This document shows, piece after piece, positions 12,712 through 41,733 of a DNA stretch of 64,000 nt. Every line of letters begins with the position of its first letter. Position 1 is the stretch's first letter. The stretch spans positions 85,347 to 149,346 of the forward strand of contig JACRDK010000004.1 in NCBI GenBank assembly GCA_016218585.1, in the 5' to 3' direction. The position numbers and the translations under genes were made by a program. The notes beneath the pieces are model-generated. The model was not told the DNA's origin and ran no database searches. It saw nothing but the letters and a program-made list of their open reading frames with translations. Source of the DNA: Candidatus Doudnabacteria bacterium (lineage in GTDB: Bacteria > Patescibacteriota > Doudnabacteria > UBA920).

Positions 12712-14223
12712 ATGCAGAAAAAAACATTTGCCGTAATGGCGGCAACAATGTTAATGCTTTTGGGGCAAATGCTGCCTCAAACGCTACAAACAGCCTTTGC
12801 CTCGGCTAGCATTCCGGCAGCAGCGACAGTAAACGTCAGCTCGGACAGCAAAACAGCGAGCTCAATAGCCTTGCCCGCAATTATAATAACCGAAGGCGCA
12901 GCGGCTGATGTTGCCATTGGCACATACACCTGGGCTTTGCCCGCTGGCTTTGTTCTTGATACCACAAGCTCAACCGACGTGGTTTATGCAGGAGCAGGTC
13001 TTACCGGCTCGAGCACAGTGAGTTTCGTTGATTCAACTCACTTTAGCATTAATGTTACCGCCACTTCCACGGCCGCTGGAAGCATTACTATTGGCGCAGT
13101 AAACCCGATTAAAGTTAGAGTAACAAACGGCACCCCTTTAGCAACAACCGGTAAAATAACTTTAAGCAGCGGCAGCATTGCCGGAATAACCAATACTTCT
13201 GCTTTTGTAAACTTAGCGCAGGTTCCGGGAGCTGCCACAAAATTAGCATTTAGCCAGCAACCTCCGGCAACTCTAACCGCCAGCACCACTTTGTTTAATG
13301 CTTCAGTAGCGGTGCAGGATCAATTTGGCAATTTAGTAAGCTCCGACAACGGACGCGCCATTAATCTGACGCCGTCTGTAATTAGCTCTTCTCCTTTGGG
13401 AGCAATTTCCGGACAAATAAACATTAATACAACAAATGGCGTAGCAAGCTTTACAAACTTGTCATACAACCAAACAGGAATTATCCAATTGGTGGCGCAA
13501 AGCTCGGGACTAACCACTGCAACCAGCAATGCGATTACTGTTTCCGCCTCAACCGTCACCCCAACTCCAATTCCAACTAATGTAGATTTGCCAAATGGCG
13601 TGTTGGTAAAATTCCCCGGCGACTCGACCATCTATATGGTTGTAAACGGAACCTTAAGACCATTTACTTCTGCCGCAATTTTTAATGCCAGAGGCAAAAA
13701 GTTCCGCGATGTAAAAGAAATTGCCAAAGACTGGTTTAAACATTTCCGTGTTGGCAGACCGGTTGGCGATTCAGATGATGACAACATCCCAACTCCAATT
13801 GTTACCATAACTTTGCCGAGCACAACTCCGGTAAGCAGCATTTCCAGCAGCACTTTAGCCGGACTCCCTAACGGCACTGTAGTTAAAGTTGCAGGCAATC
13901 CGACGGTTTATTTAGTAACCAACGGCCAACTGCAGCCAATTCCTTCTCTGAACGTTTTCCATTCCTGGAAAAAACGTTTTGAAGACATTAAAGAAATTCC
14001 CGCTTCTATCTTAAATACACTACCCTTGGGTTCCCCGGCAACTTTTGCCGACGGCACTCTATTAAAAGGCCCGGGACATACAATTTATGTAGTAAAAGGC
14101 GGACAGCTTTATGGAATTCCCAGCATGAGCGTATTAGCAAAAAACGGCTGGTCCTTAAACAGCGTTTTACAAGTCCAAGCTCAAGACCTTACTTCCCTAA
14201 CAACAGGCGGAGTAGAAAACTAA
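12712..14223 (+). CDS. Secreted Ser/Thr-rich surface protein with three C-terminal ~50-aa repeats
   Basis: Signal peptide MQKKTFAVMAATMLMLLGQ; Ser/Thr-rich beta-rich region; three repeats of the form G(D/N)xT(I/V)Y(M/L/V)V(V/T/K)(N/G)G(T/Q)L(R/Q/Y)P(F/I)xSxxVF. Confidence 0.5.
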   Translation: MQKKTFAVMAATMLMLLGQMLPQTLQTAFASASIPAAATVNVSSDSKTASSIALPAIIITEGAAADVAIGTYTWALPAGFVLDTTSSTDVVYAGAGLTGSSTVSFVDSTHFSINVTATSTAAGSITIGAVNPIKVRVTNGTPLATTGKITLSSGSIAGITNTSAFVNLAQVPGAATKLAFSQQPPATLTASTTLFNASVAVQDQFGNLVSSDNGRAINLTPSVISSSPLGAISGQININTTNGVASFTNLSYNQTGIIQLVAQSSGLTTATSNAITVSASTVTPTPIPTNVDLPNGVLVKFPGDSTIYMVVNGTLRPFTSAAIFNARGKKFRDVKEIAKDWFKHFRVGRPVGDSDDDNIPTPIVTITLPSTTPVSSISSSTLAGLPNGTVVKVAGNPTVYLVTNGQLQPIPSLNVFHSWKKRFEDIKEIPASILNTLPLGSPATFADGTLLKGPGHTIYVVKGGQLYGIPSMSVLAKNGWSLNSVLQVQAQDLTSLTTGGVEN

Positions 14224-14239
14224 ACAAAAAAATTATAAA

Positions 14240-14270
14240 ACCCTTCCGATTAACTTCGGGAGGGTTTTAT
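14240..14270 (+). terminator. Rho-independent terminator
   Basis: AAACCCTTCCGATTAACTTCGGGAGGGTTTTAT hairpin plus U-tract. Confidence 0.6.
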
Positions 14271-14474
14271 AATACCTAGTTAAAATGGAACAGGGTTAAG
14301 TGACACTGAAAAATTCTATGTATTAAACACATGTAAACATTGATATTTTAGGCTTTGAGATCTTTAAAAAAACTGTCTTTTTGGCAGTTTTTTTCAGAAA
14401 AAAATTGTAAAGGCTAATAGTTGTTCATAATATGTTAATATACAATTATGTAAGCAATAAAATGTCCAAAATTT

Positions 14475-15995
14475 ATGTTTAGTGATAAAGTATACCAATT
14501 ATATAAGCCTTTCCGAAATCATTTACGTCATGTGGCTGTAGAAAATGCTTTCTTTGTGATTTGGGCATATGCCAATTTTTTTCAATTTGATACACCATTT
14601 CCAAAAAATATTGAAGTACACCAGGAAATACACAAAACAAAAAACTTACCCAATAGACCTCTGCACGAATGGGAGTTATCTTTGTTGGCAAGAGAAATAG
14701 TAATTAATGGGCAATCCTCGCTATCATTTGCTACAAAGAGCTTTCAAAATTGGATGTATTTTTCTGATGCCATAAACAAGTTAAAAGACTTTGAAAATAA
14801 AGCTTGGCCTGTTTTTGGAGGAATGAACAATATTCAAAAAGAAATCAGAAGAATAAGCCACCGTCAATTTCCTTGGCAGGCAAGAATCAATACTTCATTT
14901 TTTCTTAGGTATTATAAAATTTACAATAATCCCCTAATAAGCAAAATAATTGAAGAAAAAATTGGTATGACCTTACAGCAATGGTATACCATCGGAACAG
15001 CTTTGTTTGGCGCCACCTTAACTAATCCAAAATTTAACATTGACACTGAAATTTCAATATCCAATATAACAATGATAGAATTTAATAAATTTCTAAATCA
15101 TACATCAATTGGCCTTGATGACTTAAAAAAACTAATAAAAAAAGAAGTCTACTTTGATGATAGATTTATATACAGTTTTAATCCCCTAGAATACTACCCT
15201 TTAATTAACATAGGGCTATATTACTACTGTCCAATTCCAACCCTTTTAGCGTGGCGTATTACCTCAGGAATATATTTTGATTTAATTAATGAAAAAAGTT
15301 TTGGGCATCCTTTTGGTTTTGCTTACCAGAATTATATCGAAGAGATTACTAAAGTAGTTTTAGATAAGAAACAATATTCTGTTCATCCCGAACAAAAATA
15401 CATAGTAAATGGCGGTTCTCAAGATAGTATCGATTTAATAGTTAGTCAAAATAATTCGGCTTTATTCATTGAAGCCAAAGCTAAAAGACTTACCGTTAAA
15501 TCAAAAAGCGAGCTAGTTTCTGATTCAAATTATGACAAAGATTTAAATACTTTAGCAGATGATGTTGCTCAAGCATATGCAACGATAGATGATTATTTAG
15601 GAGGCTGTTATAAACATTTTCCTTATACAAATGAGATCAAAATTTATCCATTAATTGTTACCTTAGAAGAATGGTATTTATTAGGCGAGGATGTAAAAGC
15701 ACTAAGAGAAAAGGTTAAAATCAAAATTACCCAAAAAGGCTTAGCACTTGAATATTTGGACTCTATGCCTTACACTGTTTGCTCCACCGTCAATTACGAA
15801 GCATTTGTTCAAATTCTGAATAAACATTCAATTGTGGAGGTTATGGATTTATGGCTCGACCCCGAACGATATGGACATAATTTTGGACAATTTCTATCTA
15901 CCAACTATAAAAGAGAGTATAAATTTATTGACGACTATTTCCCTGGCGAGTTTGAAAAAATATATCCTAAGGGAATCATTTCAGAATCTATTTAG
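14475..15995 (+). CDS. Hypothetical protein (506 aa) in AT-rich islet; C-terminal region with a PD-(D/E)xK-like nuclease motif
   Basis: No recognised family; motif SIDLIVSQNNSALFIEAKAK (D-x12-E-A-K) resembles the PD-(D/E)xK core; local GC clearly lower than neighbours. Confidence 0.4.
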   Translation: MFSDKVYQLYKPFRNHLRHVAVENAFFVIWAYANFFQFDTPFPKNIEVHQEIHKTKNLPNRPLHEWELSLLAREIVINGQSSLSFATKSFQNWMYFSDAINKLKDFENKAWPVFGGMNNIQKEIRRISHRQFPWQARINTSFFLRYYKIYNNPLISKIIEEKIGMTLQQWYTIGTALFGATLTNPKFNIDTEISISNITMIEFNKFLNHTSIGLDDLKKLIKKEVYFDDRFIYSFNPLEYYPLINIGLYYYCPIPTLLAWRITSGIYFDLINEKSFGHPFGFAYQNYIEEITKVVLDKKQYSVHPEQKYIVNGGSQDSIDLIVSQNNSALFIEAKAKRLTVKSKSELVSDSNYDKDLNTLADDVAQAYATIDDYLGGCYKHFPYTNEIKIYPLIVTLEEWYLLGEDVKALREKVKIKITQKGLALEYLDSMPYTVCSTVNYEAFVQILNKHSIVEVMDLWLDPERYGHNFGQFLSTNYKREYKFIDDYFPGEFEKIYPKGIISESI

Positions 15996-16143
15996 GATAT
16001 TGACTACCAGATGTTTTTAGTGTATAATTTTAACACAATAAATGTTTGACACAGCAAACATTTAAGTAGGCTCTTACAAACCTGTGTAAGAGTTTTTTGT
16101 TCCCCCTTGTAACTTTCAACTTTATAACTTGAAACTTACTCAT

Positions 16144-16219
16144 GGCGGCTATGGTATAATGGTTATTACATCGCTCTGTGGCAGCGAGAATTCGGGTTCA
16201 ATTCCCGATAGCCGCCCCA
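16144..16219 (+). tRNA. tRNA-His (anticodon GTG), with encoded G(-1) and CCA
   Basis: Hand-folded: G(-1), acceptor GCGGCTA/TAGCCGC, anticodon arm TCGCT-CTGTGGC-AGCGA (GUG), T-arm TCGGG-TTCAATT-CCCGA, discriminator C73, CCA. Confidence 0.85.
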
Positions 16220-16220
16220 A

Positions 16221-16253
16221 TCAAAAAATCCACCCTAAAGGTGGATTTTTTGA
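16221..16253. terminator. Bidirectional hairpin terminator
   Basis: AAAAAATCCACCCTAAAGGTGGATTTTTT. Confidence 0.6.
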
Positions 16254-16256
16254 TTG

Positions 16257-16811
16257 TTATGCTTCTACATCTTGTTTATCGAGAATAAGCTCAAATAGTT
16301 GTTGCTTAATTTCCTCTATATTATATTCTCGCTGATTCTTAATTCTTAATAGAGATAAATTCGCATTCTTAAAAATACATCCAACCTCTTCATCCCGTTC
16401 AATGCGATTTTCCCTATCATGGGAACGATCATCTAATTCTACGGCCAACAAAGGTTTTCTGCTTTCCAAATCGCAAATTAAAAAATCAACAGACTTTTGG
16501 TTAATATGTTTCCATGCGCCTATCCAGCTTTGTCCACGAATTTTGTAATCTAAGAATGCGTCCAAATGCACCTGAGGAAATACAAAATATTGACCATCAA
16601 CTAAATTTAACAATATGCTATAAAACTCATTCTCAGAAGCCGTCATTACTGAATTTTTGACCCTATATTCGTACTTCCGAGCACGTTTTTGACCAATAAT
16701 CGCTGACAAAATAGCCATAACTACTAGAAGCGCAAAAAGCAACAGCAGCATATGACCACCTTGTGTGGTAAATAAACTAGTTATGATCTCCCAAAAATTT
16801 ATTTTTATCAT
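16257..16811 (-). CDS. Membrane-anchored DUF2726 (restriction-endonuclease-like fold) protein
   Basis: N-terminal TM; SENEFYSIL, FLICD and AVELDDRSH motifs typical of DUF2726/NERD-like PD-(D/E)xK proteins. Confidence 0.6.
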   Translation of the reverse strand: MIKINFWEIITSLFTTQGGHMLLLLFALLVVMAILSAIIGQKRARKYEYRVKNSVMTASENEFYSILLNLVDGQYFVFPQVHLDAFLDYKIRGQSWIGAWKHINQKSVDFLICDLESRKPLLAVELDDRSHDRENRIERDEEVGCIFKNANLSLLRIKNQREYNIEEIKQQLFELILDKQDVEA

Positions 16812-16870
16812 AATTTTGTTTTATTAACAGATATAATTTATAGCTACTTATTATTATTATTGATAAGATT

Positions 16871-17305
16871 TTGCTATACTTAATCAATCTTAACATTAAA
16901 TTGGACTTTATGACTAATCCGACTAAAATGCAAATTAATGAAGACGAATTAAAACAAAAACTTACTCCCGAGCAATATAAGATTTTGCGGGAAAAAGGAA
17001 CTGAAGCGCCTTTTTCTTCTCCCCTGCTAAATGCCCACGACGGGATGTTTGCCTGCGCCGTCTGCGGCCAGGAATTATTTTCCGCCGACACCAAATTTGA
17101 TTCCGGCACCGGCTGGCCAAGCTTTGACCAAGCTATCCCCGGAGCAGTAGAATTTAAAGCAGATAAAGAATATGGGATGGAACGAACAGAGGTAATTTGT
17201 TCCAAATGCGGTTCTCACTTAGGCCACGTGTTTAACGACGGCCCAACTGATACGACAGGCAAGCGCTTTTGCATTAACGGCGCCTGTTTAATTAACAAAA
17301 AATAA
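16871..17305 (+). CDS. msrB: Peptide-methionine (R)-S-oxide reductase MsrB
   Basis: Two CxxC zinc motifs ([18 protein letters not shown]) and GTGWPSF; SelR fold. Confidence 0.9.
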
Positions 17306-18861: not shown

Positions 18862-20772
18862 TTAATTTTTATATGATAAAAACTCCACAATCCTATTGTC
18901 CAATAAAATATCGCTTTGCAGCACCGGGCGCTTTAAGTACAAGCCTCCTAAAGTACGGCAGCGTGACAGCGCCACATACAACTGGCCATGGGCAAAGGTA
19001 CCGCCGGCCAAATCCACATAAACTTTGTCAAAAGTTTTTCCCTGGCTTTTATGAATAGTTAAAGCCCAGGCGGGTTTTAACGGATACTGGGTAAATTCAC
19101 CCACGGTTTTAGATTCCACTTTTTGCGTATGCTTGTCCAAATAAAAATTATACATTTCCCAGGTATGCCTGCCAACATAAACTTTTTCTCCGGTTTCCAG
19201 CCCCACTCTAATAAGCAGGTCATTCCCCTCCGGAAATTTAAAACCATTTTCCGAACCGTCTTCCTCCAAATATTCTAAAGCGTCGTCCATTACGTCCCGG
19301 GATTTTACAAAGCCCAAAACCTTTCCCATTGTCCCGTTAACCCATCGCTTTTTTGGATCATTGTTTAGCATCATAACCTGAGCGCCAACTTTTAGCTTAA
19401 GATTTGTTTCCCCGGGCGCGGTTTTGCCTTCCAGTTTTCCGGAAGCATAGCCTTGGAAAACTTTTGCCTGCCCTGGCAGCTGGTTTAAATAATAATCGTT
19501 AACCTGGGAAGCGCGGGAATTAGTCGGGGTTAAATACACCGCAAACTGTTCAAAAGTAAATTTATCGCCTTCTTGTTCGCTTCTGCTATTTAAAACTTCC
19601 AAATGTTCGGTGCTGGCGGCATTGTTGCGCACGGCATTTAAAATTTCCAAAAAGCCCCGGTCTTTTTGCCGATACACGGTTTTTAATTCCATTAACTTAA
19701 AATTTCCGCTTTGAAAACTTCTGGAGTCAAAAAAATATGGGCTCTTATATTCGGCAAACAAGCCGCCGGCGGTAAAATCTTTATCAATAGGCGGCAACTG
19801 GTAAAGGTCGCCAATAAACACCATTTGCACGCCGCCAAACGGCAAATTTCCGGCAGGGCCATTCAGCCTTAAAAATCTGTCCACGCAGTCCAGCAAGTCG
19901 GCGCGCACCATGGAAATTTCGTCTATTACTACCGTACTCAAACGCTGTAATAATTCTTTTTTCCCTCCGCCGGAGGAAATTTTTTTAACCCGACCAATGG
20001 TAATGTCCGGGCCAAACCCGCAAAAAGAATGAATGGTTTGCCCGCCAACATTTACCGCAGCCACGCCGGTTGGCGCCAGCACCACGGTGTTTTTGTTGGT
20101 GTGTGTTTTAAAATATTTAAGCAGCGTAGATTTTCCGGTCCCCGCTTCTCCGGTTAAAAAAATGTTCTCGCGGGTCTCTTCCATTAATTTAAAGCTTGCC
20201 AACATTTCCGGATTGGAAGTTATGTCTATTTCTTCCATGTCTTCTTCCCTGTCATGTTTTGCTGGCTTAAGATGTTCCCCAATGTCTTCCTGCTCATATT
20301 CCACAATATCTTCTATAAGCTGCAATAGCCTTGACCGGATTATGCTTCTTTGCAAATCAACAACTTTGGATAATCTTAATATAAATTTTCGAAAAGTTTC
20401 ATTTTTTGCTAAAAGATATTTCTTATATTCCCGAATAAAAATTTCGTCAGTTTCGGGGGTTGCTGCGCGGCTTGCAGTTTCCAATTTCTTTTTTTTATAT
20501 TCTTCATCGCGCTGTTTTACGGCTTCATAATCCCAGCCCGGAATATTTGGAAAACTCAAAGCCAGCCGTCCGCGAATTCCGTTCGGTCGGCGGCCCAGGA
20601 GCTGCGCCATGGAATCCAAAAAACTTTCAAAGTCGTAATTCTCCTCTAAACATTTTTTGTATTCCGCGTTCAGTAAATTACTCTCCTCTTCATTCCAGCG
20701 CATGCCGGCTTTGGGAAAGTCTTTGCGTATTTGCTCTATTTTAGAAACAGGTTTTTGTTGTGAGTCCTCCAT
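18862..20772 (-). CDS. PIF1/RecD-like superfamily-1 DNA helicase (AAA_30 plus UvrD_C_2-type) with an acidic ~190-aa N-terminal extension
   Basis: Walker A FLTGEAGTGKST, VLAPTGVAAVNVGGQTIHSF, Walker B VVIDEISMV, C-terminal YVALSRCRTLGGLYL motif. Confidence 0.75.
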   Translation of the reverse strand: MEDSQQKPVSKIEQIRKDFPKAGMRWNEEESNLLNAEYKKCLEENYDFESFLDSMAQLLGRRPNGIRGRLALSFPNIPGWDYEAVKQRDEEYKKKKLETASRAATPETDEIFIREYKKYLLAKNETFRKFILRLSKVVDLQRSIIRSRLLQLIEDIVEYEQEDIGEHLKPAKHDREEDMEEIDITSNPEMLASFKLMEETRENIFLTGEAGTGKSTLLKYFKTHTNKNTVVLAPTGVAAVNVGGQTIHSFCGFGPDITIGRVKKISSGGGKKELLQRLSTVVIDEISMVRADLLDCVDRFLRLNGPAGNLPFGGVQMVFIGDLYQLPPIDKDFTAGGLFAEYKSPYFFDSRSFQSGNFKLMELKTVYRQKDRGFLEILNAVRNNAASTEHLEVLNSRSEQEGDKFTFEQFAVYLTPTNSRASQVNDYYLNQLPGQAKVFQGYASGKLEGKTAPGETNLKLKVGAQVMMLNNDPKKRWVNGTMGKVLGFVKSRDVMDDALEYLEEDGSENGFKFPEGNDLLIRVGLETGEKVYVGRHTWEMYNFYLDKHTQKVESKTVGEFTQYPLKPAWALTIHKSQGKTFDKVYVDLAGGTFAHGQLYVALSRCRTLGGLYLKRPVLQSDILLDNRIVEFLSYKN

Positions 20773-24071: not shown

Positions 24072-25031
24072 TCAAAATAACTTGTTGAAGCCAGCTGTAT
24101 TAATAAAGAAATTGCCAGTATTCAACTTCAGTGCATTATTTATATCTACTTTTTGACTTTCAATTTTATTTAATGGGCTTTCGCCATCATCAAATTCATT
24201 ATTTTTCAGAATGCTTTTTTTAATTGCATTTTTTAATTTTAAATTCTTAGAAAACAATAAATTGAAATACGCACCATCTAAAAATGAAACCTGATGGAAT
24301 TTTGAATTTACTAATTTATTCTTTAGTATATCAATTAATTCTTTAATCTGTTTGTTTTGAGCCCCTCCACTTATACTAATGTGTTTGGCTTCCAAAAAAT
24401 ATATATCTTTACCATTTTTAACACATAAATCCATTTTTTTATTTTGTGAGTCTTTGCCAATCTGGACTTTAAAGTTTTTTAAAATTCCATTCAGGGTAAA
24501 ATCACCTTTAAACTTTGAAACGCTTTTTTTGTTTTTAATAAAGGTTTCGAATTTTTCCGTGTATAAATAACCTTTTGATTTTAAAATCTTTATTAATTTC
24601 TCTTCCCCTGCTTGTCCTTTTTTGCGGGACGAAGTCTTATCAATTAAGGCCTGAATCCACTCTCCAGGTACAATATCATTTAAATCTCGTTTTTCAAGAT
24701 AAAGTTTGGTGATTTTCTCTAAAGCTTGAAGATTTTTAGAAGCCACTTCAACGGTTGCATCACAAGCATTAATAAAGCACCCAAATTCAGAAAACTGGGC
24801 ATTTTTTTCAAGTAAAATAGCAAGGTTGTGATAAATGTTCTTCTCAACTTTTTTTACTTCTTTACTTTTTTGTTTATTTAGTTCTTTGAGAGTAATTAAT
24901 TGATTTTTGATTTCTTGTGTTTTTTTTGCATACAAACTCAAATCCTTATGTTTTTCTATAAACATGTAAGATTCATCTAGTACTGGCTCAGGGTGATTCG
25001 AACAATGTTTGAGCAATTGTAAATTATTCAT
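24072..25031 (-). CDS. Putative Type II restriction endonuclease (PD-ExK) partner of the adjacent methyltransferase
   Basis: Overlaps methyltransferase by 8 nt; Lys-rich AT-rich gene; DLCVKNGKDIYFLEAK fits D-x13-E-x-K. Confidence 0.45.
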   Translation of the reverse strand: MNNLQLLKHCSNHPEPVLDESYMFIEKHKDLSLYAKKTQEIKNQLITLKELNKQKSKEVKKVEKNIYHNLAILLEKNAQFSEFGCFINACDATVEVASKNLQALEKITKLYLEKRDLNDIVPGEWIQALIDKTSSRKKGQAGEEKLIKILKSKGYLYTEKFETFIKNKKSVSKFKGDFTLNGILKNFKVQIGKDSQNKKMDLCVKNGKDIYFLEAKHISISGGAQNKQIKELIDILKNKLVNSKFHQVSFLDGAYFNLLFSKNLKLKNAIKKSILKNNEFDDGESPLNKIESQKVDINNALKLNTGNFFINTAGFNKLF

Positions 25032-26205
25032 TTGCTAATTTTAATGGTAAAACATTTAAATTCTCATACTTGTTGATAATATTATTAAAATAAATGTGAT
25101 TAATTAATTTATACGCAAAATCAAAAGATATTCTTTTTCTATCTTTATCCCTGTAGTTGGTTAGAAATAAAGAACAATAATCCTGCCTTAACTGCTCAAG
25201 ATTCTTATTGAATAAATTAATAATTTTATTTTGAATAGTAACTGGCAGTGGTTCACTAAAAACTAAATATATCATATGGCGGGATGTTGATTTGCTAATC
25301 AAACACTCCACTCCATAGTTTTTTATATTTTCAAGGGCAATCTTCCCCTTATCAGTACCGCTATCAATTGCCTTCAAAAGCATGACATTAGATTTAGTTA
25401 ATTCAGCAAGTTGTTTTGTAACATAAATGTCAACCCTTTGATCAATGTGGTTATATGCTGCTTTTAACTTAATATCCCCTTTCTGATTGTTTATCATTTC
25501 TTCTGTAAGTCTGTATACTCCTAAATTATTATCTTGGTTTTTTATTTTGCTTACAAATTCTCCTCCAATAATCCATCCATATTTTCTTTCTAGTTTAATC
25601 AAAATATCTTTACCCTCAGGATAAATATGTGTTTTAATCTCAAAACCTTCCTTAAAATAATTAGTTTTCTTTACATAATAAAAAGCAATAACGTTATAAG
25701 TGGTATCTGCAAATACCTGCTGTTTGAAATAATTAATTTCAACTATCTCAAACTTGGAGAAAAAAATATCCCTTATACTTTTTGAATTTTCTGCTGAAAG
25801 AAAATTGATTGGAACAATTACTATTCCCTCGTCACTGTCCATAATAGACTGTAATGCTATTTGATATAAATCTTCAAACTGAAATTTAGAAAAATATTTA
25901 AACTTTGTTTCTTTGGTAGCTTTATTTACATTAAGATAGGGGGGGTTCGTAATTACAAATTTAAATTTAAGCGGTGATAAAATATTGTCATTAAATTTAA
26001 TAGTTTTTTTATTTATATATTTTTTATCAATGTCAAAACCCCTGACATTTTTTGCCCCATTATTTTTGGCCCAAACTAACAAGTCCCCATTTCCTGCAAA
26101 TGGGTCAATAACTTCTTTACCTACAACTCTTTTTTCTAGCCCTTTTAATATATAATCTGAGTTGGTTGTAAAAAACTGTCCTAATTGTTTTTTGTTTCCA
26201 GCCAT
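25024..26205 (-). CDS. N6-adenine DNA methyltransferase, gamma class (TaqI/Eco57I-like)
   Basis: GQFFTT (motif X), DPFAGNGDLL (motif I FxGxG), NPPY (motif IV) in gamma order. Confidence 0.8.
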   Translation of the reverse strand: MAGNKKQLGQFFTTNSDYILKGLEKRVVGKEVIDPFAGNGDLLVWAKNNGAKNVRGFDIDKKYINKKTIKFNDNILSPLKFKFVITNPPYLNVNKATKETKFKYFSKFQFEDLYQIALQSIMDSDEGIVIVPINFLSAENSKSIRDIFFSKFEIVEINYFKQQVFADTTYNVIAFYYVKKTNYFKEGFEIKTHIYPEGKDILIKLERKYGWIIGGEFVSKIKNQDNNLGVYRLTEEMINNQKGDIKLKAAYNHIDQRVDIYVTKQLAELTKSNVMLLKAIDSGTDKGKIALENIKNYGVECLISKSTSRHMIYLVFSEPLPVTIQNKIINLFNKNLEQLRQDYCSLFLTNYRDKDRKRISFDFAYKLINHIYFNNIINKYENLNVLPLKLANE

Positions 26206-26427: not shown

Positions 26428-26874
26428 CTAGGCTTTAAAAATATTACCTTCTTTAAAAGAATCTTTGACTCCTTCTGGATTTTCTTTTAACTCTTTTCTC
26501 ACAGTAAACCATTCAATCATTCTTTTTGATAGCATGTCGAGTTCTGCGTTCGAAAGCTCCGCAGAACTTTGCGGAATATCAAAACGTTCAGCCAAACCCA
26601 TTCTAAAATTCCACAGATTTTCTATTTCGTTTTTTATATCGGCCTCATAAGGTATTTCTTTATCATTCAAAAACTTTTGCCTTACTACAGCTAACAATTG
26701 AAGGTCGGTTGATGCTGCTATCAATATATTTCTACGTTCGTCCTTCTTTAGAACTTCAGAAACATCTTTTTCATAGAGAGATTCTGTATCCTCATATTCT
26801 TCCAAAAACTTTTCTGGGGAAAGAGCTTTAATTCTCTCAACTAAAATTTTTATATTGTCTTTACTAAAACTCAT
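26428..26874 (-). CDS. Hypothetical acidic protein (148 aa)
   Basis: ORF only; AT-rich; followed by hairpin AAAACCCGCGTTTAGCGGGTTTT (26372-26396). Confidence 0.35.
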   Translation of the reverse strand: MSFSKDNIKILVERIKALSPEKFLEEYEDTESLYEKDVSEVLKKDERRNILIAASTDLQLLAVVRQKFLNDKEIPYEADIKNEIENLWNFRMGLAERFDIPQSSAELSNAELDMLSKRMIEWFTVRKELKENPEGVKDSFKEGNIFKA

Positions 26875-41331: not shown

Positions 41332-41733
41332 TTACGCGGATTTTGTTTTTTGATTAATTATTCGCTTTATTAAAACACTTTTTCTAGTAAATATTGCTAG
41401 TAATCCTAATTCCAAACCGTTTGTTTTTAAATAAGTCATTACTTGATCAAAATATTTTTTGTGGAATTCCTCCGCAACCTTCAACTCAACAACTATGTTA
41501 ATTTTTTCTTCTTTAAATTTAACTAAAAAATCAATAAAGAACTTGGAAATTATTTTATCATCATATTTTAAATTGCAGTACAACTCTCTATCAAAAACCA
41601 AACCTAATTTTTCCAATTCACTCACAAACCCACGCTGATATTCTTTTTCCCGATAACCATAACCGAGCCTGTTATAAACATTATATAACGCTCCGATAAT
41701 CATTTTGGTTTGGTTCTGATATAAAAGTTGCAT
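41332..41733 (-). CDS. GxxExxY family protein (PD-(D/E)xK-fold, TIGR04256-like)
   Basis: IIGALYNVYNRLGYGYREKEYQRGFVSELEKLGL...ADFLV...IVVELK. Confidence 0.8.
   Translation of the reverse strand: MQLLYQNQTKMIIGALYNVYNRLGYGYREKEYQRGFVSELEKLGLVFDRELYCNLKYDDKIISKFFIDFLVKFKEEKINIVVELKVAEEFHKKYFDQVMTYLKTNGLELGLLAIFTRKSVLIKRIINQKTKSA

What the first reader, a model, noticed from the sequence alone, without database searches (positions are those of the whole stretch)
14224..16820. tRNA-His-centred AT-rich islet with two PD-(D/E)xK-like proteins, a candidate defence locus
A 506-aa orphan protein with a C-terminal D-x12-E-A-K nuclease-like motif converges on a membrane-anchored DUF2726 (restriction-endonuclease-like fold) protein. 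tRNA-His lies between them, bracketed by strong bidirectional terminators. The region is markedly AT-richer than the flanking efflux and msrB genes. tRNA loci are classic integration sites, and DUF2726-family nucleases are repeatedly found in anti-phage islands. The large protein has no recognisable N-terminal domain.
Basis: partly seen in the sequence, partly recalled or inferred. Interest (0 to 1): 0.55.

Follow-up and report, generated by a model that had tools for sequence, protein, structure and literature searches.

The report
GapS1-like defence nuclease at tRNA-His hotspot
The 506-aa "orphan" in this Candidatus Doudnabacteria genome is a distant relative of the known single-protein anti-phage nuclease GapS1; it and an unrelated small membrane-tethered DUF2726 nuclease-fold gene are separate AT-rich cargo on either side of tRNA-His at a site that is empty or differently filled in close relatives, so this is a credible but fairly ordinary defence islet.

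Summary
The described features are real: a 506-aa ORF (14475-15995), tRNA-His (16145-16219), a convergent TM-anchored DUF2726 gene (16257-16811) and a GC dip to 0.29-0.36. Three details are wrong. The large protein is not an orphan: it has 276 close homologues and 3,620 clusters at 50% identity. Only one terminator is bidirectional. The left neighbour is a secreted 503-aa protein, not an efflux pump.

The 506-aa protein matches NCBIfam antiphage_GapS1 (E 5e-22, 78 bits, below the 320-bit cutoff), as do 62 of 67 family members. D320/E333/K335 are (nearly) invariant, with the same D-to-K spacing as GAPS1's essential D313/K328. The AF2 model (pLDDT 93.6) matches only PD-(D/E)xK nucleases. The family is a stand-alone gene, patchily distributed, often beside large serine recombinases and R-M genes, and found on plasmids.

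A collinear Doudnabacteria relative (L095) has the same tRNA-His locus without either gene. Another (L094) carries different cargo. L001 carries both genes plus a truncated tRNA-His copy bracketing the module. DUF2726 accompanies the family in none of 78 other loci, so a two-nuclease system is not supported.

Verdict: a new member of the GapS1 kind, sitting as integrase-less cargo in a tRNA-His hotspot. Moderate-low interest.

The parts
14237..14268 (+). Intrinsic terminator of the conserved backbone 503-aa gene. It marks the left edge of the backbone shared with L094, L095 and L001.
   Evidence: Sequence read. Backbone homology to L095 and L094 ends at window 14186-14227.
14287..14396 (+). 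Left end of the inserted module ('X region'). It is homologous to L001 7261-7376, the sequence directly following L001's truncated tRNA-His copy. It holds a possible ~14-nt remnant of the tRNA T-arm (14287-14300) and a terminator-like hairpin with a T-run (14372-14396).
   Evidence: Pairwise alignments. The region is absent from the empty-site relative L095. The T-arm remnant is only suggestive (12 of 15 columns match).
14435..14463 (+). Candidate promoter of the GapS1-like gene (TTAATA-17-TAAAAT, 9 of 12 matches).
   Evidence: This is a consensus match only, and the number of such matches in the region is not above chance.
14475..15995 (+). GapS1-like single-protein PD-(D/E)xK nuclease, 506 aa. 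It has an N-terminal helical region (~1-300), a nuclease core (~300-400) and a C-terminal helical extension.
   Evidence: NCBIfam NF047931 E 5.1e-22 over residues 96-448; 62 of 67 family members match the model. AF2 pLDDT 93.6, pTM 0.92. Foldseek PDB hits are Upx, R.BspD6I, Can2, BstEII, McrC and Shedu. GC is 0.315.
15432..15479 (+). Codons for the catalytic core D320 ... E333-A-K335 (SIDLIVSQNNSALFIEAK).
   Evidence: D320 and K335 are invariant and E333 is >90% conserved in 67 sequences of 31-76% identity. The D-to-K spacing of 15 equals that of GAPS1 D313/K328, whose alanine substitutions abolish defence.
16000..16101 (+). Conserved unit upstream of tRNA-His: a near-consensus promoter TTGACT-17-TATAAT (16000-16028), hairpin 1 with invariant loop GACACAGC (16039-16064), and an intrinsic terminator (16068-16095 plus T-run).
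   Evidence: The unit is present upstream of tRNA-His in L095, L094 and L001. There is no Rfam match.
16145..16219 (+). tRNA-His (GTG) with encoded G-1 and CCA. This is the backbone gene around which the cargo varies.
   Evidence: ARAGORN and Rfam tRNA at 62.5 bits. Identical 75/75 to L094, 71/75 to L095 and 70/75 to L001.
16218..16256 (.). Bidirectional intrinsic terminator (A6-stem-loop-stem-T6) that serves tRNA-His and the convergent DUF2726 gene.
   Evidence: Homology to L094 and L095 stops about 10 nt past the tRNA 3' end, at 16228-16232.
16257..16811 (-). DUF2726 protein, 184 aa: an N-terminal TM helix (residues 21-39) followed by a restriction-endonuclease-like domain with invariant D109, E125, D127, D128, H131. 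This is independent cargo on the 3' side of tRNA-His.
   Evidence: Pfam PF10881 E 1.8e-27. Alignment of 21 homologues. Hydropathy and charge bias. AF2 pLDDT 90.6 and Foldseek hits to BstEII, TnsA, 3ijm and I-Bth0305I. In L094 and L095 it is replaced by 45-aa + ~205-aa ORFs.
16812..16870 (.). Extremely AT-rich (GC 0.136) divergent intergenic region between DUF2726 and msrB. It forms the right edge of the variable segment.
   Evidence: The DUF2726-msrB junction is shared with L093. Backbone homology to L095 resumes at 16927.

Best explanation
The 506-aa gene encodes a stand-alone, soluble, single-protein anti-phage nuclease of the GapS1 superfamily. A large helical N-terminal region probably senses infection. 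In GAPS1 the trigger is a phage capsid protein. This region would control a C-terminal PD-(D/E)xK phosphodiesterase whose D320/E333/K335 site cleaves nucleic acid, arresting the cell or the phage. The gene is horizontally acquired, AT-rich cargo inserted immediately upstream of the promoter-leader-tRNA-His unit, at a locus that behaves as a variable hotspot in this Doudnabacteria lineage. The DUF2726 gene on the other side of the tRNA is a second, independently distributed cargo gene. It encodes a membrane-tethered, cytoplasm-facing restriction-endonuclease-fold protein of unknown role, and it is not a partner of the first.

Shown here: homology to GapS1, the intact catalytic motif, the nuclease fold, single-gene behaviour, association with mobile elements and plasmids, the empty site in a collinear relative, and the compositional anomaly.

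Inferred, not shown: anti-phage function, the nature of the trigger, the nuclease substrate, and the insertion mechanism. The insertion was probably recombination within or next to the tRNA-His unit, because relatives keep 5' tRNA-His fragments at the left edge of their cargo.
For: GapS1 homology: NF047931 E 5.1e-22 covering model positions 63-424 of 455. 62 of 67 diverse family members hit the same model, best E 2.9e-31.

Active site: D320 and K335 are invariant and E333 is >90% conserved. The spacing is identical to GAPS1 D313/K328, which are required for defence, and GAPS1 homologues only 24-29% identical to it also defend.

Fold: AF2 pLDDT 93.6. The PDB hits are PD-(D/E)xK enzymes, led by the single-protein defence nuclease Upx at E 2.3e-5, followed by Can2, Shedu, McrC, Cap4 and restriction enzymes.

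Single gene: no conserved neighbour in 78 loci, and the abutting upstream ORFs are unrelated to each other.

Mobility and defence context: large serine recombinases are adjacent in at least 8 CPR loci and in L084-L086 together with type I R-M, Eco57I, LexA/S24, DUF4238 and a Schlafen-like gene. 26 plasmids carry family members. The distribution across phyla is patchy.

Locus: L095 is collinear on both sides but has no GapS1-like and no DUF2726 gene. L094 has other cargo with a decayed promoter plus an 11-nt tRNA copy on its left. L001 has a 63-nt, 100%-identical 5' tRNA-His copy plus a 79%-identical leader copy to the left of the module, seen in three assemblies.

Discordance: the cargo genes are 76-78% identical between the window and L001, while the backbone gene is 53% identical, and the nested relatives lack the cargo.

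Composition. The window's other AT-rich ORFs are also an R-M pair and a PDDEXK_3 nuclease.
Against: The score is far below NCBIfam's curated GapS1 cutoff (78 against 320 bits), so NCBI would not name this protein GapS1. No PADLOC model matches (only E~0.01 hits to HEC-02). No bona fide GAPS1 sequence was available for a direct residue-level alignment. Structural similarity to solved proteins is limited to the nuclease domain (TM 0.15-0.31), so the sensor role of the N-terminal region is inferred only. No phage of Doudnabacteria is known, and no function was tested. The window module has no recombinase and no clear direct repeats, so the insertion mechanism is inferred from relatives. Co-occurrence of the two genes in the window and L001, with joint absence in L094 and L095, leaves some room for linkage.
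Confidence: 0.62

Rival explanations
1. The GapS1-like protein and the DUF2726 protein form one two-nuclease defence system: a soluble sensor/nuclease plus a membrane-tethered nuclease. The two genes travel together as a tRNA-His-centred cassette.
For: Both genes are present in the window and in the more distant L001 at nearly the same identity (76% and 78% aa), within one continuous 2.36-kb alignment at 75.9% nt. Both are absent from the nested relatives L094 and L095. Both are AT-rich and both have PD-(D/E)xK folds. In L001, DUF2726 sits among IetA-like and PDC-S48-like genes.
Against: DUF2726 lies within 10 kb in 0 of 78 other family loci. No conserved neighbour of any kind was found. The genes converge across a tRNA gene and have separate promoters and terminators. 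DUF2726 homologues lie next to glycogen-metabolism, cell-wall and phosphatase genes without the family gene. PADLOC has no DUF2726 hit. The window's tRNA and leader are L094-like (75/75 nt; 91-97%), not L001-like, which argues against import as one contiguous block.
Confidence: 0.1
2. The 506-aa protein is a selfish mobile-element function, such as an addiction toxin, an exclusion nuclease aimed at competing elements, or a nuclease used in element transfer or recombination, rather than an anti-phage immune protein.
For: The gene frequently lies immediately next to large serine recombinases at element ends. It occurs on conjugative plasmids near Tn3 and IS110 elements. No partner antitoxin or immunity gene is conserved.
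Against: The protein is homologous to a family with direct experimental anti-phage evidence, including a native-host knockout. In the window, L001 and many proteobacterial loci it persists without any recombinase. Cargo next to integrases is also the typical position of defence genes.
Confidence: 0.15
3. Both genes are ordinary vertically inherited housekeeping nucleases (repair or recombination), and the low GC only reflects local constraints near a tRNA gene.
For: The DUF2726-msrB junction is shared by the window and L093. Small TM-anchored DUF2726 proteins are widespread in Patescibacteria in housekeeping-looking contexts.
Against: The collinear relative L095 lacks both genes, and L094 has different genes at both positions. 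Gene and backbone identities are discordant: DUF2726 is 78% identical to distant L001 but 63.5% to L093, whose msrB is 82% identical. The family's taxonomic distribution is patchy and it is carried on plasmids. GC3 is 0.26-0.30 against about 0.43.
Confidence: 0.06

Closest known systems
[quoted passage not shown]
   Same: It is a single protein of similar size with the PD-(D/E)xK domain toward the C-terminus. The D...ExK residues are conserved with the identical D-to-K spacing of 15. HMM homology is significant over about 80% of the model (E 5e-22). It behaves as a stand-alone gene, is carried as cargo of mobile islands and plasmids, and is patchily distributed by HGT.
   Different: It scores 78 bits against the 320-bit family cutoff, so it belongs to a separate, deeply diverged clade found mainly in Patescibacteria, Alphaproteobacteria and Nitrospirota. 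The first ~95 and last ~58 residues lie outside the model match. It sits at a tRNA-His hotspot or next to large serine recombinases rather than in Gamma-Mobile-Trio islands. Trigger, target and phenotype are untested.
Upx (single-protein dual PD-(D/E)xK anti-phage nuclease; PDB 9wuf; PMC13099982)
   Same: It is the best structural match (Foldseek E 2.3e-5). It is also a single polypeptide in which accessory domains buttress and regulate a C-terminal PD-(D/E)xK core, and it is activated by phage proteins.
   Different: Upx has 1,212 aa and two nuclease domains. The overall TM-score is only 0.31/0.17 and identity is 12%. There is no sequence-level relationship in the PDB profile search.
DUF2726 / Vsr / DUF559 group of the PD-(D/E)xK superfamily (Pfam PF10881; Steczkiewicz et al. 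2012, PMC3424549)
   Same: The 184-aa protein is a clear member: 96 bits, a weak DUF559 co-hit, and a restriction-endonuclease-like fold close to I-Bth0305I, TnsA and BstEII. The 2012 survey already noted multiple transfers and mobile-element neighbourhoods for DUF2726.
   Different: This Patescibacteria clade is minimal (~170-190 aa), with an N-terminal TM anchor and a predicted cytoplasmic catalytic domain. No function is assigned and no defence model matches it.
Classical tRNA-targeting genomic islands / integrative elements
   Same: The variable, compositionally deviant cargo abuts a tRNA gene. An empty site exists in a relative. Partial tRNA copies flank the cargo in relatives.
   Different: The variable segments contain no integrase. 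The duplicated pieces in relatives are the 5' part of the tRNA plus its promoter and leader (breakpoints at nt 63 in L001 and nt 11 in L094), lying upstream of the intact gene. The usual arrangement is a 3' fragment at the distal end. The window itself has no repeat.

Membership tests
GapS1 antiphage family (NCBIfam NF047931) | Whole-protein score at or above the curated family cutoff (320 bits) | tested here: not met
   78.4 bits, E 5.1e-22. The best of 67 relatives reaches E 2.9e-31, still far below the cutoff. The protein is homologous but outside the curated subfamily.
GapS1 antiphage family (NCBIfam NF047931) | PD-(D/E)xK phosphodiesterase domain toward the C-terminus, with the catalytic D and K shown to be essential in GAPS1 (D313, K328) | tested here: met
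   D320 and K335 are invariant, E333 is >90% conserved, and the D-to-K spacing is the same 15 residues. The AF2 model and Foldseek hits are all PD-(D/E)xK nucleases. No direct alignment to a GAPS1 sequence was possible.
GapS1 antiphage family (NCBIfam NF047931) | Single-protein system with no conserved partner gene | tested here: met
   Clustering of neighbours in 78 loci gave no partner; the largest neighbour cluster occurs in 8 loci at variable distances. Abutting upstream ORFs are mutually unrelated.
GapS1 antiphage family (NCBIfam NF047931) | Carried in mobile elements or defence islands and spread by HGT | tested here: met
   Adjacent to serine recombinases, R-M, LexA/S24 and DUF4238 genes. 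Found on plasmids. Patchy across phyla. An empty site exists in L095. The elements are not GMT islands.
GapS1 antiphage family (NCBIfam NF047931) | Protects against phage; triggered by a capsid protein; causes dormancy | not testable with these tools
   Experimental property, described for GAPS1 only.
DUF2726 (Pfam PF10881), restriction-endonuclease-like | Score above the Pfam gathering threshold over the full domain | tested here: met
   96 bits against 24.7, profile positions 2-125 of 126.
DUF2726 (Pfam PF10881), restriction-endonuclease-like | PD-(D/E)xK-type fold with conserved acidic and His residues | tested here: met
   AF2 pLDDT 90.6. Foldseek hits: BstEII 8e-4, TnsA, 3ijm, I-Bth0305I. 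Invariant D109, E125, D127, D128, H131.
Classical tRNA-integrated genomic island | Integrase or recombinase gene within the island | tested here: not met
   The window-specific segments 14187-16026 and 16233-16926 hold only the GapS1-like and DUF2726 genes.
Classical tRNA-integrated genomic island | Direct repeat of part of the tRNA at the far border | tested here: not met
   There is no tRNA-His fragment elsewhere in the window; the only extra matches are chance matches of 13 nt or less. There is only a doubtful 14-nt T-arm remnant at 14287-14300. Relatives do have 5' fragments: L001 63 nt at 100% and L094 11 nt plus the pre-tRNA region.
Classical tRNA-integrated genomic island | Absent from the syntenic site in related genomes, with deviant composition | tested here: met
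   L095 is collinear on both sides and lacks both genes. GC is 0.32-0.34 against 0.41 +/- 0.05.
Two-gene nuclease defence system (GapS1-like + DUF2726) | Conserved co-occurrence and co-orientation of the two genes | tested here: not met
   0 of 78 other loci have DUF2726 within 10 kb. The genes converge across a tRNA. Co-occurrence is seen only in the window and L001.

The most novel reading that the evidence does not exclude
The tRNA-His locus of these Doudnabacteria could be serviced by an unrecognised, integrase-less cassette-exchange process. In it, cargo modules arrive carrying their own promoter-leader-5'-tRNA-His segment and recombine within the tRNA. The old 5' copy is displaced leftwards to decay, which is the mirror image of classical 3'-att integration. 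In that reading the GapS1-like and DUF2726 nucleases could travel together as a tRNA-centred two-nuclease cassette, and the conserved promoter/hairpin (GACACAGC loop)/terminator unit could be a functional small RNA tied to the process.
Probability: 0.1. Interest if true: 0.6.

Novelty: new member of a known kind. Interest (0 to 1): 0.34.

Why it matters
Candidate Phyla Radiation bacteria have tiny genomes and few recognised immune systems beyond restriction-modification. This analysis shows that a large, currently unannotated protein family is a deep branch of the experimentally validated GapS1 family. The family has 3,620 clusters at 50% identity and no Pfam or PADLOC model, and NCBI's GapS1 model does not name it. 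Recognising it would extend defence annotation to Patescibacteria, Alphaproteobacteria, Nitrospirota and several plasmids. It also provides natural sequence diversity for working out how the N-terminal region senses phage. The tRNA-His locus comparison gives a clean example of a small variable defence hotspot in CPR genomes, with empty, GapS1-like and NUDIX-cargo states. The finding does not reveal a new kind of system.

Tried and rejected
1. Pfam, PHROGs and the PDB sequence-profile search gave nothing for the 506-aa protein. PADLOC gave only insignificant HEC-02A/B hits at E~0.01.

2. A search for an att-type tRNA-His repeat in the window found nothing beyond chance 11-13-mers.

3. I looked for a conserved partner gene. 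Neighbour clustering, a test of abutting upstream ORFs such as L001's 153-aa ORF and a DUF2726 tblastn against all loci were all negative.

4. A metagenome scan with the invariant 21-nt leader/terminator sequence, meant to find more tRNA-His loci, returned only an unrelated chance match (L092).

6. Phage carriage is low: none in 50,697 phage records and 3 contigs in IMG/VR. The family is therefore not primarily phage-borne.

7. The Rfam search of the region found only the tRNA itself; the other hits were all below the gathering thresholds.

8. I considered import of one contiguous GapS1-like/tRNA/DUF2726 block from an L001-like donor and set it aside. The window's tRNA and leader are identical or 91-97% identical to L094, which lacks both genes. 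The direction and unit of transfer remain unresolved.

9. I could not obtain a bona fide GAPS1 sequence for direct alignment. Plasmid homologues are all annotated as hypothetical.
Full report
OBSERVATION. The window comes from a Candidatus Doudnabacteria (Patescibacteria/CPR) MAG, because the 506-aa protein is 100% identical to NCBI HY918_00715 on a 174-kb contig. The annotated parts are real. ORF 14475-15995 (+) encodes 506 aa. tRNA-His(GTG) lies at 16145-16219 (+). ORF 16257-16811 (-) encodes 184 aa. msrB lies at 16871-17305.

GC falls to 0.29-0.36 across 14200-17000. Gene by gene, the 506-aa ORF (GC 0.315, GC3 0.258) and the 184-aa ORF (GC 0.342, GC3 0.297) are the 4th and 7th lowest of 65 ORFs, whose mean is 0.414 +/- 0.054.

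Several details need correction. The hairpin at 16218-16256 is a true bidirectional terminator. The hairpin at 16068-16095 is a one-way terminator that belongs to a conserved unit upstream of the tRNA. The immediate left neighbour is a secreted 503-aa protein with no Pfam match, not an efflux pump. The large protein is not an orphan.

THE 506-AA PROTEIN. Pfam, PHROGs and the PDB sequence search find nothing. NCBIfam's 'antiphage_GapS1' model (NF047931) matches residues 96-448 to model positions 63-424 of 455 at E 5.1e-22. The score is 78 bits against a naming cutoff of 320.

An alignment of 67 homologues (31-76% identity) shows D320, K335 and K337 invariant and E306, E333 and Q366 >90% conserved. 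Sixty-two of the 67 members hit the GapS1 model independently, best E 2.9e-31.

GAPS1 is a single-protein system from Vibrio GMT islands. It has a PD-(D/E)xK domain toward the C-terminus, and D313A and K328A abolish defence. It is triggered by the T7 capsid protein and causes dormancy. E. coli homologues only 24-29% identical to it also protect, including in a native-host knockout. The D-to-K spacing of 15 residues is the same here.

An AlphaFold2 model built on the alignment is confident (pLDDT 93.6, pTM 0.92). It has a helical N-terminal ~300 residues, an alpha-beta-beta-beta-alpha-beta core at ~300-400, and a helical C-terminal extension. Foldseek against the PDB returns PD-(D/E)xK enzymes almost exclusively: Upx (itself a single-protein defence nuclease, E 2.3e-5), R.BspD6I, Can2, BstEII, the R2 RLE domain, McrC, Shedu and Cap4. 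TM-scores are low, so only the nuclease domain is matched. The protein has no TM segment.

FAMILY BEHAVIOUR. The exhaustive search counts 3,620 clusters at 50% identity with E<=1e-3 and 785 with E<=1e-30. Species-representative genomes give 78 loci spread over Patescibacteria, Alphaproteobacteria, Nitrospirota, Burkholderiales, Bacteroidota, Verrucomicrobia and others.

No neighbour is conserved, and ORFs that abut the 5' end are unrelated to each other. The family is therefore a stand-alone gene, like GAPS1.

The most recurrent neighbour is a large serine recombinase, often within a few hundred bases. Relatives of 54-56% identity lie with type I R-M, Eco57I, LexA/S24, DUF4238, a Schlafen-like gene, ParB-methylase, a terminase-like gene and a rolling-circle Rep gene. 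Twenty-six plasmids carry members, next to a tyrosine recombinase, Tn3 and IS110. Sequenced phages carry none, and IMG/VR holds three contigs. A tRNA or tmRNA lies within 3 kb in about 10 of 60 loci; in L043 and L046 it lies within 100 nt. I did not test this proximity formally against a background.

THE LOCUS IN RELATIVES. This was the decisive comparison.

L095, a Doudnabacteria contig, is collinear with the window on both sides at 69-80% nt identity: ferric reductase, the 503-aa gene, then msrB, a 108-aa gene, DUF5666 and PIF1. Between the 503-aa gene's terminator and tRNA-His it has only the promoter, GACACAGC-loop hairpin and terminator unit, with no GapS1-like gene. Downstream of the tRNA it has a 45-aa and a 209-aa membrane ORF instead of DUF2726.

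L094 has the closest 503-aa orthologue (77%) and an identical tRNA-His. It carries a different cargo (322 aa, NUDIX, 115 aa) upstream of the tRNA and the same 45-aa + 203-aa pair downstream. At the left edge of its cargo sits a decayed copy of the promoter, the pre-tRNA region and tRNA nucleotides 1-11.

L001 is the only other genome with both genes (76% and 78% aa). It has an extra 153-aa ORF. To the left of the module it has a copy of the promoter and leader (79% identical to the right-hand copy) followed by tRNA-His nucleotides 1-63 at 100% identity. This arrangement is seen in three independent assemblies. If both segments diverged neutrally together, 63 of 63 identities beside 79% would be very unlikely. 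This suggests the two segments have different histories, as expected after recombination within the tRNA.

The window keeps the sequence just right of that breakpoint (14287-14396 aligns with L001 7261-7376). It has lost the duplicated unit, except perhaps for a 14-nt T-arm trace. The window-specific segments are 14187-16026 and 16233-16926, and homology to L094 and L095 stops about 10 nt after the tRNA's 3' end. Neither segment contains a recombinase.

VERTICAL OR HORIZONTAL. By the 503-aa gene (77, 67 and 53% identity to the window) and tRNA-His (75, 71 and 70 of 75 nt), the backbone order is ((window, L094), L095), L001. Yet the cargo genes are shared only by the window and L001, at 76-78% aa.

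DUF2726 is only 63.5% identical between the window and L093, although their msrB proteins are 82% identical and the DUF2726-msrB junction is shared. This discordance, together with composition, indicates horizontal movement of both genes.

The direction of transfer, and whether the genes moved together, cannot be settled. The window's tRNA and leader are L094-like (91-97%), which argues against import of one contiguous block.

In L001, composition switches at the truncated tRNA, from GC 0.45-0.57 on the left to 0.31-0.40 on the right for at least 10 kb. The right flank there includes an IetA-like ATPase (PADLOC 2e-32) and a PDC-S48-like protein. In that genome the tRNA-His region is therefore a defence island.

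DUF2726. The 184-aa protein is a solid PF10881 member. It has one strong TM helix at residues 21-39 and a K/R-rich segment after it (6 K/R against 1 before), which by the positive-inside rule puts the catalytic domain in the cytoplasm. Twenty-one homologues, mostly from Patescibacteria, share invariant D109, E125, D127, D128, H131, R136, R139 and D140. The AF2 model (pLDDT 90.6) matches BstEII, TnsA, 3ijm and the I-Bth0305I catalytic domain.

DUF2726 is absent within 10 kb of the family gene in all 78 other loci. It has no PADLOC hit. Its homologues sit beside glycogen-metabolism, cell-wall and phosphatase genes. The 2012 PD-(D/E)xK survey lists DUF2726 as of unknown function, with multiple transfers. 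I conclude it is independent cargo of unknown role. A membrane-proximal nuclease acting on incoming DNA is only a speculation.

MECHANISM, WITH CONFIDENCE. It is shown that the 506-aa protein is a GapS1-superfamily homologue with an intact PD-(D/E)xK site, that it behaves as a mobile single gene, and that it occupies a variable site. By analogy with GAPS1 and Upx, I infer that the N-terminal region holds the nuclease inactive until it recognises a phage protein, and that the nuclease then degrades nucleic acid to arrest infection or growth. I put about 0.9 on the homology and nuclease statement and about 0.6 on anti-phage function.

The insertion mechanism is inferred from relatives: recombination within or next to the promoter-leader-tRNA-His unit, leaving 5' partial copies. 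The breakpoints differ (nt 63 and nt 11) and there is no integrase. This fits homologous or illegitimate recombination, or decayed elements, better than one site-specific system.

COMPARISON AND NOVELTY. The protein works like GapS1, and more loosely like Upx. It fails NCBI's curated GapS1 threshold, so it is best described as a deep sister clade of GapS1. DUF2726 is a plain family member. The islet meets two criteria of a tRNA-associated island, an empty site in a relative and deviant composition. It fails two others, an integrase and a tRNA repeat in the window. Overall this is a new member of a known kind. Its annotation value is that a large unannotated family links to a validated defence system, notably in CPR bacteria, but it is not a new type of system. 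Interest 0.34.

Noticed in passing
window 16000-16101 (also L095 9564-9668, L094 4453-4545, L001 9526-9646 and 6967-7087): A near-consensus sigma70 promoter (TTGACT-17-TATAAT) is followed by a hairpin with an invariant GACACAGC loop and a covarying stem, then an intrinsic terminator. The whole unit lies just upstream of tRNA-His and is conserved in four genomes, and it is duplicated with the tRNA fragment in L001. It could be a ~65-nt small RNA or an unusual tRNA-His leader or attenuator. There is no Rfam match.
   Followed up: partly
window 24072-26205 (-): This is a second, even more AT-rich island (GC 0.28). It encodes a type II restriction-modification pair: a REase_II/Tsp45I-like protein (319 aa) overlapping an Eco57I-type methyltransferase (393 aa). 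A 148-aa AT-rich ORF at 26428-26874 has no match.
   Followed up: partly
window 41332-41733 (-): An isolated AT-rich ORF (GC 0.28, 133 aa) is a PDDEXK_3 nuclease (PF13366, E 2.8e-24). In this genome the lowest-GC genes are consistently nuclease or R-M genes.
   Followed up: partly
L001 10338-17521 (right of DUF2726 in the closest relative): An AT-rich block (GC 0.32-0.40 against 0.45-0.57 left of the truncated tRNA) encodes a PDC-S48-like 259-aa protein, an RDD protein, an IetA-like AAA ATPase (PADLOC E 2e-32), two unknown proteins (255 and 546 aa) and an 834-aa HSP70/MreB-like protein. This may be a multi-gene conflict system, and it is absent from the window.
   Followed up: partly
L008 8387-9919 (-) and L012 7411-9903 (-): Single polypeptides fuse a LexA DNA-binding domain and an S24 peptidase to a DNA methyltransferase (N6_N4_Mtase, or N6_Mtase/Eco57I/TaqI_C). 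They lie directly upstream of family genes in Patescibacteria. Such SOS-cleavable methyltransferase fusions look unusual.
   Followed up: no
window 18862-20772 (-): A 636-aa PIF1-like helicase partially matches the PADLOC candidate PDC-S68 (E 3e-24). It is part of the conserved backbone (71% aa to L095), so it is probably housekeeping rather than defence.
   Followed up: partly
L094 2360-4470: An alternative cargo occupies the same tRNA-His site in the closest backbone relative: a 322-aa protein with no family match, a NUDIX hydrolase (176 aa) and a 115-aa membrane protein. It is bracketed on the left by a decayed promoter plus an 11-nt tRNA-His copy.
   Followed up: partly
window 12712-14223 (+): A 503-aa secreted protein with internal ~60-aa repeats has no Pfam match and is conserved across Doudnabacteria and Patescibacteria (45 homologues, 43-89% identity). 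It served as a useful backbone anchor for synteny.
   Followed up: partly
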